Shown here: positions 1,369 through 53,700 of the stretch, piece after piece
Layout: each line of letters starts with the position of its first letter
How positions within the stretch are numbered: position 1 is the stretch's first letter
IMG/VR virus record: IMGVR_UViG_2579779067_000001
DNA from: a virus
Taxonomy: Duplodnaviria; Heunggongvirae; Uroviricota; Caudoviricetes
DNA length: 54,751 bases
Direction: 5' to 3' (one strand)
Notes under the pieces: model-generated
Database searches by the model: none
What the model saw: the letters and a program-made list of their open reading frames with translations, nothing else
What the model was told of the DNA's origin: nothing
Made by a program: the position numbers and the translations under genes

Positions 1369-1444
1369 GCCGATATAGCTCAGTTGGTAGAGCAGCGCAT
1401 TCGTAATGCGAAGGTCGTAGGTTCGACTCCTATTATCGGCACCA
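1369..1444 (+). tRNA. thrW: tRNA-Thr (anticodon CGU)
   Basis: 76-nt sequence GCCGATATAGCTCAG...TCGGCACCA with anticodon loop TCGTAAT; ends in CCA; classic prophage attachment site. Confidence 0.9.
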
Positions 1445-1458
1445 TTTAAATCAATAAG

Positions 1459-2622
1459 TTACACATCATTAGTACCTTCCTTATTTTTTGACTGGGACAA
1501 ATTTGGGACCGATGGGTTCAGAATCGAGTCTATTTGCCGTGCGTGTTCGGTAAGGTGATTAGGTGCGAGGTGAGCATATCGACGAACCATTTCGATAGAC
1601 TCCCAGCCTCCCATTTCCTGTAACACTGACAACGGGACTCCGGCTTGAACCAGCCAACTTGCCCAGGTGTGTCTCAAGTCGTGAAATCTGAAATCATCAA
1701 TACCAGCTCGTCTCAGCGCCGCTTTCCAGGCTGTGTTTGCGTCATACCGCATCTTCCTTACTGTTGGCGCTTTCGTTCCGTCTGGTTTGGTACAGCTTTC
1801 CTTGTACACAAATACCCAACGGTGATGATTCCCGATTTGTTTTTTCAAAACGCGACATGCAGTATCATTCAGCGCAACGCCGATTGCGCGGTTTGATTTA
1901 CTCTCTTCCGGGTTTATCCATGCCACCCGGCGCTGCATATCTATTTGTTGCCATTCAAGGTTGATGATGTTCGAGCGTCTTAAGCCTGTTGCCAGTGCAA
2001 ATTCAACAACAGACTTTAATGGCTCCGGACATTCATCAATCAGCCTTTGTGCTTCATGGGGCTCCAGCCAGCGGATCCGTTTATTCTTTGGTTGAGGCAC
2101 TTTAATAATTGGTGCCTTATCCAGCATTTTCCATTCACGCTCTGCGGCTCTTAGTAGGGCCTTTATAAATGAAAGATGCGTAGCCTTCGTTGCAACGGAC
2201 GCTGGTTTTGGCGTGTATTCTGGAACAGGTTTCCCTTTTTTTCTGCATGCTTCTGCCCTGAGTTTCCAGTTTTCCTCATGACGCCGGTTCGTCATTTTCT
2301 GCATTGCTGAATAAATTTTTGATTCAGTAATGTCTCTTAGTTGCATTCCTGCGAAATGTTGAAGCCAGAATCCGATCCGGCTTTTGTCATCGTCCAGTGA
2401 TTTTTTATATGCTTTCTCTTCAAGCCACCTGACACACGCTTCCTCGAACGTTATATCAGGTATTTCACCAAGTTTGCTGACCCGCCATGCTTCAGCCTTT
2501 AGCTTGTCATGGAGTTCTGTCGCCTGCCTTTTGTCCTTTGTTCCAAGAGACTGTTTAAATCTTTTACCGTTCGGCAATGTGAAACTGGCGTACCATATTT
2601 CACCTCTGCGGAAGAGTGACAT
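1459..2622 (-). CDS. int: tyrosine integrase
   Basis: 387 aa; ATG start; C-terminal [10 protein letters not shown]...RRYAH catalytic motifs; immediately next to tRNA. Confidence 0.9.
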
Positions 2623-2849
2623 TTTCTTTCCTCTGTTATGCCATCACCCGCGCTCACCTGGACAGTATGCAGCGGAGACTGAAGAGCCGCAATGCAGGCT
2701 TGTCGTGTTGTGAGGTAAGGAGATTTATTCTTAGTGGGATCTTTGCGTGTTGCCTGAAGACGCCCTGTGCGTATCCAGTTAATGGCAGTCGGTCTGGATA
2801 TCTTGAGAAAATGACAGGCCTCATCGAGTGTGAGGCTGTATGGCTCCAT
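2499..2849 (-). CDS. xis: excisionase (HTH)
   Basis: internal ATG of track ORF 2499..2933; [39 protein letters not shown] overlap with upstream gene; overlaps int start. Confidence 0.6.
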
Positions 2850-3154
2850 TATTTCACCTCTTGCTGTGACATTGTTGAAAAATGGATACCAGCTCGTTGC
2901 TGCCAGACGATCCAACCGAGAGTCATATCCCATGCCATGTATTCGTTATCGCCGTTTTTTGCTCTCCGACGATCTACTAAGTCACCGAAACGCTTTTCCA
3001 TGAATAATTCATAAGCTTCGCGTTCATCTGGTTCTACTTCCAGAGATAGGAGTGCGATTTCATAAGCACGGCGCTCAATATCGTCTCGCACGTCAAGGCT
3101 GCTGATACGCTCTTTAATTTCTTTAATCAGTTCTTTGTCGGTAAAAGTGGTCAT
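2849..3154 (-). CDS. hypothetical prophage protein (YfdT-like by size and position)
   Basis: 101-aa ORF in int-proximal operon. Confidence 0.5.
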   Translation of the reverse strand: MTTFTDKELIKEIKERISSLDVRDDIERRAYEIALLSLEVEPDEREAYELFMEKRFGDLVDRRRAKNGDNEYMAWDMTLGWIVWQQRAGIHFSTMSQQEVK

Positions 3155-3516
3155 TATGCTCCAGCCTCCGGTGCTTTTGGCATTACTGCCCAGTGAGTGA
3201 TATTGACGTTTTCAAGGTCCCCGACCTGAAATGTCCACTGCCATTCTCCGGTTTCTTTTTGTCCCCAGGTGTACCAGAGAGAACGCCAGCCAATTAGCCA
3301 GCCTTCTCCGTTAGCATCGAATAACAAAACACTTTCATTTGCTGGTGGCAGTTCAGTTGACACTGGTATTACTTTGTTTTCCTGTGCTGCACATTTAGCT
3401 TCAAGCGCATCGAATTTACGCACCAGGTATTCAGCATCTGTTTCATTTACTTTCAGATCTCGCGGTACACATCTCCCACGAAGAAACCCTTCCATTTCGA
3501 AAACATTCATGCGCAT
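3154..3516 (-). CDS. hypothetical prophage protein (YfdS-like by size and position)
   Basis: 120-aa ORF, Trp-rich C-terminus. Confidence 0.5.
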   Translation of the reverse strand: MRMNVFEMEGFLRGRCVPRDLKVNETDAEYLVRKFDALEAKCAAQENKVIPVSTELPPANESVLLFDANGEGWLIGWRSLWYTWGQKETGEWQWTFQVGDLENVNITHWAVMPKAPEAGA

Positions 3517-4070
3517 TTGCGTAACTCCGATAACTCGTTAAAGCGTTCCATAAACATCCCGTAGGCATGGCCCGGTGCCAGTGGAATCACGTTGAACATC
3601 TCTGTTGCCGGGATACCTTCCAGTACAGGCCAGAAAGAGCCATCATCAAGCCCGAGATCGCGGCGTTCGGTTGCCAGCATGATGAGATCGGCATATTTCA
3701 CGGGCGTACTCATAACTGGGGGTAACCCGTATTTCTCACGGATTACGGCGTCTATTTTTTCTTCCATTTGTTTATAGTCAGGAAGAAGGCGTTTCAGTGG
3801 TGCGGGAATGTCCTGGCAATACGCTTCCGTTGCATCATGCATTAACGCTTCAAAAGCAAATTCCTGCGGCACCAGCTGGCTGCAAAGAACCGCATGTTGG
3901 GCGACGCTGTAGAAGTGCGAAAGATGACCGGCAAAGCGACAGATATTTGAAAGGGAAACCGCGATATCGTTAATATCGATGTCGTCTTTATTTATCCTGT
4001 CATAATAAAAATGCTTCCCGGAAAAAGTTTTAATAAATGACATTTTGTTCTCCACGTATATGCGCTGCAC
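3507..4070 (-). CDS. HD-domain phosphohydrolase (YfbR/YfdR-like 5'-deoxynucleotidase family)
   Basis: 187 aa; H...HD motif (AQHAV ... MHDATEAYCQDIPAPLK) resembling YfbR HDASEVLTGDLPTPVK. Confidence 0.7.
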   Translation of the reverse strand: MQRIYVENKMSFIKTFSGKHFYYDRINKDDIDINDIAVSLSNICRFAGHLSHFYSVAQHAVLCSQLVPQEFAFEALMHDATEAYCQDIPAPLKRLLPDYKQMEEKIDAVIREKYGLPPVMSTPVKYADLIMLATERRDLGLDDGSFWPVLEGIPATEMFNVIPLAPGHAYGMFMERFNELSELRKCA

Positions 4071-4170
4071 CGCGCTGAATTCTGGTAAAAAGAATCCCTC
4101 ACCATCCGGCGATTATTGAGTAAATTACGTTTCCATAAATGCCCCCGCAGGGGCATTTGCAGTAATGAAA

Positions 4171-53063: not shown

Positions 53064-53070
53064 CCCACCT

Positions 53071-53096
53071 GACCGGCATCTGCCGGTCTTTTTTTA
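53071..53096 (+). terminator. rho-independent terminator after alpha
   Basis: GACCGGCA-TC-TGCCGGTC hairpin followed by T7. Confidence 0.7.
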
Positions 53097-53112
53097 TCCC
53101 TGAATTCCCCGA

Positions 53113-53412
53113 AGGTGAACAATCCACTGTTCACCCTTCACCGTGTATTCACCCGTTATCATACTGAAATTAGAAGAGAAAAACGAAAGGTGAACAGTGT
53201 GAACAATCAAATCAAAAAAAACTTTTTTCTTCCTGAGTGATTTCAGCACGGGAAATTAATCCCCTGCACGAGTCACACCGGCAGAATGCCGGAGGTGAAG
53301 AATCGAATGTTCACCCTTCACCCATTATTCACCACCTATCATACTGAAATAAAAGGAGAAAACAGAAAGGTGAACAGTGTGAACAGTTCTTCCGAAAAAA
53401 AACTTTTTTCTT
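53113..53412. repeat. P4 crr-like region: two about 120-bp direct repeats with TGTTCACC/GGTGAACA iterons
   Basis: 53113-53232 and 53293-53412 nearly identical, separated by about 60 bp. Confidence 0.75.
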
Positions 53413-53529
53413 ATTTTTAATTGTGTAAAAAACAAGCGATGCGCGCAGTGTGTATAGATATGTGTATAGTTATATTTTTTGAATATGATAATCTATTATA
53501 AATCAATGCTTTAACTTGTAATATTCATT

Positions 53530-53562
53530 CCTATTATCGCACCATTTAAATCAATAAGTTAC
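53530..53562 (+). repeat. degenerate copy of the thrW 3' end plus prophage-1 attL arm
   Basis: CCTATTATCG-CACCATTTAAATCAATAAGTTAC matches 1429-1462 with a 1-nt deletion. Confidence 0.75.
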
Positions 53563-53700
53563 CTCACATTTCAGTAAACTACGTTCTCCTCTTGTGCCTT
53601 TGATTTTGCTCGCGTGCGCGGTGAAATGCCTGACTGAAAGGTGAGCATATCGACGAACCATTTCGAGAGTTTCCCATCCGCTCATTTTTAAGTGCAAGCA
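53563..53700 (-). pseudogene. integrase 3' remnant
   Basis: minus-strand reading ...[14 protein letters not shown]...* parallels prophage-1 integrase ...[14 protein letters not shown]...; 28-bp identity to 1568-1595. Confidence 0.6.

What the first reader, a model, noticed from the sequence alone, without database searches (positions are those of the whole stretch)
1399..53700. Tandem array at thrW: mosaic prophage, P4-like satellite and an integrase remnant
Three copies of the tRNA 3' end are present: the intact tRNA (1369-1444), a 46-bp copy (42602-42647), and a 33-bp copy fused to prophage-1 attL-arm sequence (53530-53562), which is followed by a divergent integrase C-terminal remnant (53563-53700). 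This is consistent with successive integrations: an ancestral lambdoid element, then the P4-like satellite, then the current 41-kb prophage. No P2-type helper is present in the window.
Basis: seen in the sequence. Interest (0 to 1): 0.5.

Follow-up and report, generated by a model that had tools for sequence, protein, structure and literature searches.

The report
Prophage plus P4 satellite at thrW
Downstream of the threonine tRNA gene thrW sit, one behind the other, an intact SfII-type prophage, a P4 satellite and an old integrase scar; the same arrangement is in about 6% of complete E. coli genomes, so it is real but ordinary.

Summary
thrW is at 1369-1444. Its last 46 nt recur exactly at 42602-42647, and its last 15 nt (minus one G) plus 18 nt of downstream flank recur at 53530-53562, followed by about 190 bp of integrase C-terminus.

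Element 1 (1445-42601) is an apparently intact SfII-like myovirus. Its Int is 99% identical to SfII Int, it has the published 46-bp att core, and it lacks gtrABC. Element 2 (42649-53528) is satellite P4 itself over 7.3 kb (98% nt identity) with cos, psu, delta, sid and CI RNA. It differs from P4 in its thrW-specific integrase, its hotspot cargo and a nonsense codon in alpha.

Of 5426 complete E. coli genomes:
- 81 have the site with both elements absent (thrW, scar, yagU).
- 120 have the satellite directly at thrW.
- 1214 have an SfII-type int at thrW.
- 325 have the same prophage-then-satellite junction.
- None has the reverse order.

So the elements are independent and the scar came first. 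The satellite most likely arrived before the prophage. There is no P2-type helper in the window. The array is a routine example of serial integration at a tRNA hotspot. The most interesting content is cargo: PD-T4-3, a PANGU-like pair, and an uncharacterised nuclease-domain protein.

The parts
1..1254 (+). proA, the left chromosomal flank
   Evidence: 417-aa ORF. Annotated proA at the same position upstream of thrW in UTAK-1, AR_0077 and K-12.
1369..1444 (+). thrW, an intact tRNA-Thr(CGT). Its 3' 46 nt (1399-1444) form the attL core of the prophage.
   Evidence: The core is identical to the published SfI/SfII/SfV/SfX/P22 core (PMC3636060).
1445..42601 (.). Element 1: an SfII-like temperate myovirus prophage (about 41.2 kb) with a mosaic structure. 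It looks intact.
   Evidence: 96-98% nt identity to SfII, SfI, SfIV and SfV in collinear blocks, interrupted by replaced segments. All 23 SfII head and tail proteins up to the fibre, plus int, xis, cI, cro, O, Q, holin and endolysin, have full-length uninterrupted matches. gtrA, gtrB and gtrII give no hit.
1459..2622 (-). Prophage integrase of the P22/SfV family. xis overlaps it at 2499-2933(-).
   Evidence: 99.2% aa identity to SfII Int over 387 aa. PF00589. Xis is 98% identical to SfII Xis.
13549..15751 (-). Two-gene insert between the prophage's Q and lysis genes. A YejK-like nucleoid-associated protein (14717-15751) overlaps a 395-aa protein with two C-terminal transmembrane helices (13549-14736). 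PANGU-like.
   Evidence: PF04245 E 8e-69. phrog_3767 and phrog_5023. Hydropathy peaks at about 291-320 and 353-388. The pair is conserved in Methylotenera and Plesiomonas elements. System described in bioRxiv 10.64898/2026.04.06.716658.
19739..38467 (+). Prophage packaging, head, contractile-tail and fibre module
   Evidence: TerL, portal, HK97-type capsid PF05065, sheath and tape measure. 92-100% aa identity to SfII orthologues as far as the N-terminal third of the fibre; the fibre C-terminus and the assembly protein differ.
38728..42234 (.). Prophage cargo next to attR, in place of gtrABC. It comprises an acyltransferase (38728-39795, -), the PD-T4-3 GIY-YIG defence protein (40346-41170, -) and a DUF6650 protein (41758-42234, +).
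   Evidence: PF01757, PF22945 and PF20355. PADLOC PD-T4-3 E 3e-140.
42602..42647 (+). Second copy of the 46-bp core, serving as attR of the prophage. Its last 17 nt plus the next base (42631-42648, TCCTATTATCGGCACCAT) are the attL core of the satellite.
   Evidence: 42477-42648 is 96.5% identical to the SfII attP region.
42649..53528 (.). Element 2: a P4 satellite with a thrW-specific int/att module. The distance between its two cores is 10,898 bp.
   Evidence: 46075-53408 is 98.1% identical to P4 4291-11624 in a single alignment. The same element sits alone at thrW in UTAK-1.
42812..43978 (+). Satellite integrase (388 aa)
   Evidence: Arm-DNA-bind_3, Phage_int_M and Phage_integrase domains. 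39% identity to P4 Int, 100% to the UTAK-1 copy, and about 21% over 150 aa to the prophage Int.
44050..45645 (-). Hotspot cargo: a 531-aa protein, GC 30%, with an N-terminal PD-(D/E)xK (DUF4365/DREN-like) nuclease domain and an unassigned C-terminal region of about 400 aa
46056..46074 (-). P2/P4-type cos, the 19-nt cohesive end GGCGAGGCGGGGAAAGCAC
   Evidence: Exact and unique in the window. Identical to the first 19 nt of the P4 record.
46239..48134 (-). psu (46239-46811), delta (46885-47385) and sid (47382-48134), the capsid-hijacking and late-activation genes
   Evidence: 99.5%, 97.6% and 99.2% aa identity to P4 Psu, Delta and Sid. PF07455 and PF04606.
48669..50715 (+). P4 immunity and early region: vis/AlpA (48669-48935), c4-a1b1 targets (48994-49046), isrK (49007-49084), C4/CI RNA (49192-49279), epsilon (49524-49811), orf151 (49804-50259) and orf106/cnr (50395-50715)
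   Evidence: Rfam matches above gathering score. 94-100% aa identity to P4. PF05930, PF10554 and PF17345.
50730..53063 (+). alpha (primase-helicase), interrupted by an in-frame TAA at codon 201 (51330-51332)
   Evidence: 98.8% aa identity to P4 alpha. The codon is GAA in UTAK-1. The stop lies just upstream of the EGYATA motif.
53109..53408 (+). crr, the cis replication region: two 120-bp direct repeats
   Evidence: D2. Aligns to the annotated crr of P4 at 4291-4590.
53529..53562 (+). Third copy. 53529-53545 (TCCTATTATCG-CACCAT) is the attR core of the satellite; the remaining bases to 53562 are the old sequence downstream of thrW.
   Evidence: All five E. coli satellites examined have the single-G form. 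Unoccupied thrW and the K-12 CP4-6 attR have GG.
53563..53745 (-). C-terminal remnant of a P22/SfV-family integrase, an old scar
   Evidence: (D3). PGAP calls it 'integrase, frameshifted, incomplete' in EC19 and AR_0077.
54137..54751 (+). yagU, the right chromosomal flank. The yagP'-paoDCBA segment found in K-12 and UTAK-1 is absent here.

Best explanation
This is a tandem array made by successive, independent site-specific integrations into the 3' end of thrW. Each integration regenerated the tRNA and pushed earlier residents downstream.

Step 0 (shown): before either element arrived, the locus read proA, thrW, TTTAAATCAATAAGTTA..., about 190 bp of a decayed P22/SfV-family integrase, yagU.

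Step 1 (inferred order): a P4 satellite carrying a thrW-specific tyrosine integrase recombined through a 17/18-nt core (TCCTATTATCG[G]CACCAT). This left the single-G copy at its right end (53529-53545), joined to the old flank and scar.

Step 2 (inferred order): an SfII-type temperate myovirus recombined through the 46-bp core with the only complete copy available, thrW itself. This produced attL at 1399-1444 and attR at 42602-42647, which doubles as the satellite's attL.

Each element keeps its own integrase and directionality factor (int/xis; int/vis) and its own flanking repeats, so each should excise on its own (inferred). The prophage looks fully functional. The satellite has its cos, hijacking and immunity functions, but a nonsense codon in alpha should stop autonomous replication. 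It would also need a P2-type helper, which is not in the window.
For: - Repeats are exact and non-random.
- The 46-bp core is identical to the experimentally defined SfI/SfII/SfV/SfX/P22 core (PMC3636060).
- Element 1 Int is 99.2% identical to SfII Int, and the structural and regulatory genes are full length.
- Element 2 is 98.1% identical to P4 over 7.3 kb, with cos and CI RNA.
- A synthetic junction with both elements removed matches 81 complete E. coli genomes in one piece, at up to 99.7% identity.
- A synthetic junction joining thrW directly to the satellite's left end matches 120 genomes; UTAK-1 carries the same satellite with the same cargo.
- An SfII-type int lies next to thrW in 1214 genomes.
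- The same prophage-attR-satellite junction is in 325 genomes.
- EC19 has the same three-part array with different cargo at every variable locus.
- The reverse order (satellite right end joined to an intact SfII-type int) is in 0 of 5426 genomes.
- SfI integrates at attL of a resident SfX, so in that experiment the newest element lay nearest the tRNA (PMC3306764).
Against: - No excision or circle junction can be observed from sequence, so independent mobility is inferred.
- The order of steps 1 and 2 is not fixed by the structure. The satellite core is contained in the 46-bp copy, so a satellite entering the attR of a resident prophage would give the same map.
- The 325-versus-0 asymmetry is not corrected for clonal sampling, and it depends on megablast coverage thresholds.
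- The source genome is not in the collection at 100% identity, so its other prophages, including any P2-type helper, are unknown.
- The heterology in the satellite's attR core (one G missing) might reduce excision.
Confidence: 0.88

Rival explanations
1. Same three elements, but the prophage integrated first and the P4 satellite later entered the prophage's attR copy of the core (42602-42647) instead of the intact thrW.
For: The satellite's 18-nt core lies inside the 46-bp repeat. Before the satellite arrived, the next 18 nt downstream would have been the same at attL and at attR. Either copy would therefore have been a usable attB, and the final map would be identical.
Against: If satellites entered resident prophage sites, about half should have landed at attL, giving thrW, satellite, prophage. 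That junction is found in 0 of 5426 genomes, against 325 for the observed order. An incoming 46-bp-core phage has only one complete target once a satellite is resident, which explains the asymmetry. The same satellite with the same cargo is found alone at thrW.
Confidence: 0.1
2. The whole 52-kb stretch is one composite mobile element that moves as a unit.
For: EC19 has the same tripartite order. The satellite core is present at 1428-1445 as well as at 53529-53545, so recombination between the outer copies is conceivable.
Against: Each part occurs without the others. SfII, SfI, SfIV and SfV are free phages with the same attP. The satellite is alone at thrW in 120 genomes. The scar is alone in 81 genomes. 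An intact internal att copy separates the parts. The sequence downstream of copy 1 is prophage arm, not satellite arm, so the outer pair is not a proper attL/attR pair for the satellite Int.
Confidence: 0.02
3. The third copy and the 'remnant' are chance similarity, or a local duplication of the prophage's attL region, rather than an older scar.
For: 24 nt are identical to the prophage attL junction (D10).
Against: 0 matches are expected by chance. Beyond the first 18 nt the similarity drops to 74%, with a different C-terminal tail. The same sequence follows thrW at 99.6% identity in strains that lack both elements.
Confidence: 0.01

Closest known systems
Shigella flexneri serotype-converting phage SfII (NC_021857), with SfI, SfIV and SfV
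   Same: Integration at thrW through the identical 46-bp core. Int is 99.2% identical and Xis 98%. int and xis sit at attL and cargo sits at attR. The early region, HK97-type head and contractile-tail modules are collinear at 96-98% nt identity.
   Different: No gtrA, gtrB or gtr(type) and no IS elements. The attR-proximal cargo is an acyltransferase, PD-T4-3 and a DUF6650 protein. The insert between the Q and lysis genes is a PANGU-like pair instead of SfII_49/50. The fibre C-terminus and assembly protein are replaced. The host context is E. coli-like (yagU downstream), not the Shigella proA-yaiC arrangement.
Satellite phage P4 (X51522 / NC_001609)
   Same: 98.1% nt identity over psu-delta-sid, the immunity region with CI RNA, epsilon, orf151, cnr, alpha and crr. 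The 19-nt cos is identical.
   Different: The integrase is only 39% identical and targets thrW instead of leuX. gop-beta-cII is replaced by a single 531-aa gene. alpha has a nonsense codon at position 201.
Tandem SfI-SfX lysogens at thrW (Sun et al. 2011, PMC3306764)
   Same: Two integrative elements in series at thrW, each flanked by att copies, with the later arrival next to the tRNA.
   Different: That case has two phages with the same 46-bp core. Here a phage and a satellite use nested cores of different length (46 nt and 17/18 nt) and unrelated integrases.
P4-like satellites with a variable defence hotspot between int and cos/psu (Rousset et al. 2022, PMC9122126; Moura de Sousa and Rocha 2022, PMC8628076)
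   Same: The layout int, variable cargo, cos, psu. Related satellites at thrW in other E. coli carry HEPN, SIR2, retron RT, Gabija-like, HerA/DUF4297 or ORC/Cdc6 cargo at the same position.
   Different: The cargo protein here matches no PADLOC, Pfam or PHROG model. I could not check whether it appears in those papers' supplementary lists.
Cryptic prophage CP4-6 at thrW in E. coli K-12
   Same: Same tRNA and same downstream chromosomal scar. Its attR is followed by TTAAAATCAAAGAGTTAC....
   Different: Different element. IntF lies at the right end and shows no significant similarity to either integrase here. The gene content is unrelated, and K-12 keeps yagP-paoABCD.

Membership tests
SfII/SfV-type thrW-integrating temperate phages | 46-bp attP/attB core ATTCGTAATGCGAAGGTCGTAGGTTCGACTCCTATTATCGGCACCA flanking the prophage | tested here: met
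   Exact copies at 1399-1444 and 42602-42647. The sequence is as published.
SfII/SfV-type thrW-integrating temperate phages | P22/SfV-family integrase and excisionase next to attL | tested here: met
   Int is 99.2% and Xis 97.9% identical to SfII, both full length.
SfII/SfV-type thrW-integrating temperate phages | Collinear cos-packaging, HK97-type head and contractile-tail module | tested here: met
   23 SfII structural proteins match at full length with 92-100% identity. Pfam domains.
SfII/SfV-type thrW-integrating temperate phages | gtrA-gtrB-gtr(type) O-antigen glucosylation cluster next to attP (the serotype-converting trait) | tested here: not met
   tblastn with SfII GtrA, GtrB and GtrII gives no hit in the window. 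It is therefore an SfII-like phage but not a gtr serotype converter. An Acyl_transf_3 protein is present; its function was not tested.
Satellite P4 | psu, delta and sid (helper capsid size redirection and late gene activation) | tested here: met
   97.6-99.5% aa identity, full length.
Satellite P4 | P2-type cos site | tested here: met
   Exact 19-mer at 46056-46074.
Satellite P4 | CI RNA immunity region and epsilon | tested here: met
   Rfam C4 76 bits, c4-a1b1 and isrK. Epsilon is 98.9% identical.
Satellite P4 | Intact alpha primase-helicase with crr | tested here: not met
   alpha is 98.8% identical but has an in-frame TAA at codon 201. crr is present.
Satellite P4 | P4 integrase and leuX attachment | tested here: not met
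   Int is 39% identical to P4 Int, and the attachment is at thrW with a 17/18-nt core. This is a P4 variant with a swapped int/att module.
Satellite P4 | Dependence on, and packaging by, a P2-type helper | not testable with these tools
   No P2-type genes in the window. The rest of the genome is unknown.
Tandem array from independent site-specific integrations | Each element is flanked by direct repeats of its own att core | tested here: met
   The 46-nt pair and the 18/17-nt pair.
Tandem array from independent site-specific integrations | Each element is found alone at the same site elsewhere, and the unoccupied site exists | tested here: met
   81 unoccupied, 120 satellite only, 1214 with SfII-type int at thrW, 325 tandem.
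Tandem array from independent site-specific integrations | Separate excision products (circles and repaired junctions) | not testable with these tools
   Needs PCR or deep long-read data from the strain.
CP4-6 (the K-12 thrW island) | IntF-type integrase and CP4-6 gene content | tested here: not met
   No significant similarity of IntF to either integrase or to the remnant, and a different gene set.

The most novel reading that the evidence does not exclude
The co-residence may not be neutral. In complete E. coli genomes, this satellite's thrW junction lies behind an SfV-type prophage in 325 cases and directly at thrW in 120. Only 22% of genomes carry such a prophage at thrW, and the reverse order is never seen. 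Read most boldly, the prophage-plus-satellite array behaves as a stabilised composite defence island. In this window it would hold PANGU-like, PD-T4-3 and an uncharacterised DREN-like nuclease protein. A replication-dead satellite would be trapped away from the tRNA and kept for its cargo, and that 531-aa protein would be a new single-gene anti-phage system.
Probability: 0.12. Interest if true: 0.45.

Novelty: already known. Interest (0 to 1): 0.15.

Why it matters
As a structure it matters little. It is a clean, well-delimited example of how a tRNA hotspot accumulates mobile elements with nested attachment cores. The same junction is in about 6% of complete E. coli genomes.

It is useful for three things:
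- Exact element boundaries for annotation.
- A natural case in which the order of arrival can be inferred from core lengths.
- A pointer to cargo worth testing: the 531-aa nuclease-domain protein in the P4 hotspot, and the prophage's PANGU-like pair.

Tried and rejected
- Searched for the source genome. The best E. coli matches to the right-hand 12.4 kb are 98.2% identical and carry paoABCD, so the strain itself is not in the complete-genome set.
- Considered that the element is K-12's CP4-6. Rejected: different integrase and content.
- Considered that TTTAAATCAATAAGTTAC after copy 3 was copied from prophage 1. Rejected: it follows thrW in strains without any element, and related versions follow the att site in K-12 and UTAK-1.
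- Scanned one genome per species for the satellite's right-end core, to see whether the single G is universal. There was one hit, Citrobacter youngae, with GG. That is too little to decide.
- A PDB sequence-profile search with the cargo protein family found nothing. Fold searches assigned only the N-terminal nuclease domain.
- One literature search failed on a term that was too short.
- Did not try to correct the genome counts for clonality.

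
Full report
**1. The observation**

ARAGORN and Rfam find a single tRNA gene, tRNA-Thr(CGT), at 1369-1444. It lies downstream of proA, so it is thrW, as annotated in K-12. The last 46 nt of the gene occur a second time, exactly, at 42602-42647. No shuffle of the window produced even one match with up to three mismatches. The identity extends one base further, to 47 nt.

A third, shorter copy lies at 53530-53562. It consists of CCTATTATCGCACCA, the last 16 nt of the tRNA with GG reduced to G. This is followed by TTTAAATCAATAAGTTAC, which is identical to the 18 nt that follow thrW at 1445-1462.

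Downstream, 53603-53687 is 74% identical to the 3' end of the integrase gene next to thrW. The minus strand reads ...[27 protein letters not shown].... This is 62% identical over 29 residues to that integrase's C-terminus and includes the catalytic-tyrosine motif. The only adjustment is that the remnant can be followed to about 53745.

**2. Element 1 (1445-42601)**

It is 96-98% identical to Shigella phages SfII, SfI, SfIV and SfV and to several E. coli myoviruses. The similarity comes in long collinear blocks broken by replaced segments, so 'mosaic' is accurate.

Its integrase is 99.2% identical to SfII Int. The flanking repeat is letter for letter the 46-bp core determined experimentally for SfI and reported as shared by SfII, SfV, SfX and P22 (PMC3636060).

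All 23 SfII packaging, head, tail and baseplate proteins have full-length, uninterrupted counterparts. So do Int, Xis, CI, Cro, the O-like replication protein, Q, holin and endolysin. The prophage therefore looks intact.

It is not a glucosylating serotype converter, because GtrA, GtrB and GtrII give no hit. The attR-proximal cargo is instead:
- an Acyl_transf_3 protein;
- a GIY-YIG protein matching PADLOC PD-T4-3 at E 3e-140;
- a DUF6650 protein.

**3. Element 2 (42649-53528)**

From 46075 to 53408 it is 98.1% identical to satellite phage P4 in one ungapped-scale alignment. The evidence for each P4 function is:
- Psu, Delta, Sid, Vis, Epsilon, ORF151, ORF106 and Alpha are 94-100% identical to the P4 proteins.
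- The 19-nt P2/P4 cohesive end is present exactly at 46056-46074.
- Rfam finds the C4/CI immunity RNA, its a1b1 targets and isrK.
- The two 120-bp crr repeats are at 53109-53408.

It differs from P4 in three ways:
- The integrase (42812-43978) is only 39% identical to P4 Int and is attached at thrW, not leuX.
- gop-beta-cII are replaced by one 531-aa gene in the known int-to-cos hotspot.
- alpha has an in-frame TAA at codon 201. This codon is GAA in strain UTAK-1, and the stop lies just upstream of the EGYATA motif.

The satellite's own repeat is TCCTATTATCGGCACCAT at 42631-48 and TCCTATTATCG-CACCAT at 53529-45. Its core is therefore nested inside the phage's 46-bp core.

**4. Comparison with other genomes**

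I used junction queries against 5426 complete E. coli genomes and counted genomes in which one place covers at least 80% of the query.

| Junction tested | Genomes |
|---|---|
| Synthetic: proA-thrW joined directly to the flank of copy 3, the remnant and yagU (both elements removed) | 81, up to 99.7% identity in one piece |
| Synthetic: thrW joined to the satellite's left end | 120 |
| thrW plus the SfII-type int | 1214 |
| Window's internal junction: phage P arm, 46-bp copy, satellite int | 325 |
| Satellite right end plus remnant plus yagU | 12 |
| Synthetic: satellite right end joined to an intact SfII-type int | 0 |

Individual loci add detail:
- In strain AR_0077, an intact thrW with GG is followed by the same arm and remnant, differing by 2 SNPs in the first 60 nt.
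- UTAK-1 carries the same satellite with the same cargo and an intact alpha.
- Strain EC19 has the same three-part array. Its prophage is 97-99% identical over most of its length but differs at every variable locus, and its satellite carries a HEPN gene.

The parts therefore occur separately, and the array is common. This rules out a single composite element.

**5. The scar**

Strains that keep yagP'-paoDCBA (K-12, UTAK-1) share with the window only the first 55 nt or so after the core. Homology resumes upstream of yagU. The window's 377 bp at 53599-53975 replace about 5.5 kb in those strains. In K-12 the attR of CP4-6 is followed by the related TTAAAATCAAAGAGTTACCCC....

A short integrase-end scar downstream of thrW is therefore old and shared across E. 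coli lineages. The window has the longer, pao-less allele. Nothing shows that the element that left it was lambdoid. Only its integrase family can be named.

**6. The single G**

All five E. coli satellites examined have the one-G core at their right end. They sit on two different downstream alleles (window, UTAK-1, EC19, 10035210-2 and 120899). Unoccupied thrW and the CP4-6 attR have GG. The simplest reading is that the left part of copy 3 is satellite DNA and strand exchange occurs 3' of the G. This is an inference. A related Citrobacter element has GG.

**7. Order of events**

The scar came first (section 4). For the other two elements the map alone is ambiguous, because a satellite could also enter the attR of a resident prophage.

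Two things favour 'satellite, then prophage':
- Once a satellite is resident, thrW is the only complete 46-bp target. A later phage must therefore land between thrW and the satellite.
- The opposite order is never seen (0 versus 325), although the satellite core and its next 18 nt would be the same at a prophage's attL and attR.

The experiment in which SfI integrated at attL of a resident SfX agrees (PMC3306764). I put about 0.75-0.8 on this order within the overall model.

**8. Helper**

The only capsid in the window is HK97-type (PF05065), with a TerL/portal set that matches SfII. Every base of the window is assigned to proA-thrW, the prophage, the satellite, the scar or yagU. So there is no P2-type helper here. 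Whether one lies elsewhere in the genome cannot be known.

**9. Verdict**

However, this is a textbook tRNA-hotspot array built from two very well known element families, and the identical junction occurs in about 6% of complete E. coli genomes. The novel content is in the cargo, described under 'noticed in passing'.

Noticed in passing
[not shown]
   Followed up: partly
window 51330-51332 (within alpha, 50730-53063): An in-frame TAA at codon 201 of the satellite's primase-helicase; the codon is GAA in UTAK-1. It lies just before the EGYATA motif. The satellite is probably unable to replicate autonomously.
   Followed up: yes
window 13549-15751 (-): Between the prophage's Q and lysis genes lies a low-GC (36-39%) overlapping gene pair. 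One gene encodes a YejK/NA37-like nucleoid-associated protein. The other encodes a 395-aa protein with two C-terminal transmembrane helices. The pair is conserved next to integrases in Methylotenera and Plesiomonas. The architecture matches the 'type II PANGU' defence described in a 2026 preprint. PADLOC 2.0 has no model for it.
   Followed up: partly
window 40346-41170 (-): A GIY-YIG protein matching the PD-T4-3 anti-phage defence model (E 3e-140), in the prophage's attR-proximal cargo region. EC19 carries it at the equivalent place.
   Followed up: yes
window 38728-39795 (-): An Acyl_transf_3 membrane acyltransferase (GC about 32%) sits where SfII-type phages carry O-antigen modification genes, and gtrABC are absent. 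It may be an O-acetylase. It gave no hit when the window was searched with the SfII acyltransferase protein.
   Followed up: partly
window 53529-53545; L001 13919, L002 14538, L010 11656, L011 12095: The satellite's right-end core lacks one G relative to thrW in all five E. coli copies examined, on two different downstream alleles. Unoccupied sites have GG. This suggests the heterology is carried by the satellite's attP.
   Followed up: partly
window 38520-38591 and 42473-42544: 72-nt direct repeats (79% identical), each containing a terminator-like hairpin, bracket the prophage's whole variable cargo region. They may serve as recombination handles for cargo exchange (D4, 44).
   Followed up: no
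E. coli complete genomes (junction counts): Two synthetic junction queries were used: the satellite's left end joined directly to thrW, and the satellite's right end joined to an intact SfII-type int (the reverse order). The satellite lies behind an SfV-type prophage in 325 genomes, directly at thrW in 120, and in the reverse order in none. Only 1214 of 5426 genomes have that int at thrW, so independence would predict about 100 tandem cases. Clonal sampling is not controlled.
   Followed up: partly
window 53599-53975: A 377-bp segment (the longer integrase remnant plus a 76-aa ORF) replaces the roughly 5.5-kb yagP'-paoDCBA block found in K-12 and UTAK-1, so this strain lacks the periplasmic aldehyde oxidoreductase operon. 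At least 81 other genomes share this allele.
   Followed up: partly
window 8839-8961: Six 15-nt-spaced repeats (TCAAAATCTGAC-like) lie inside the O-like replication gene. They are probably origin iterons of the prophage (D1).
   Followed up: no
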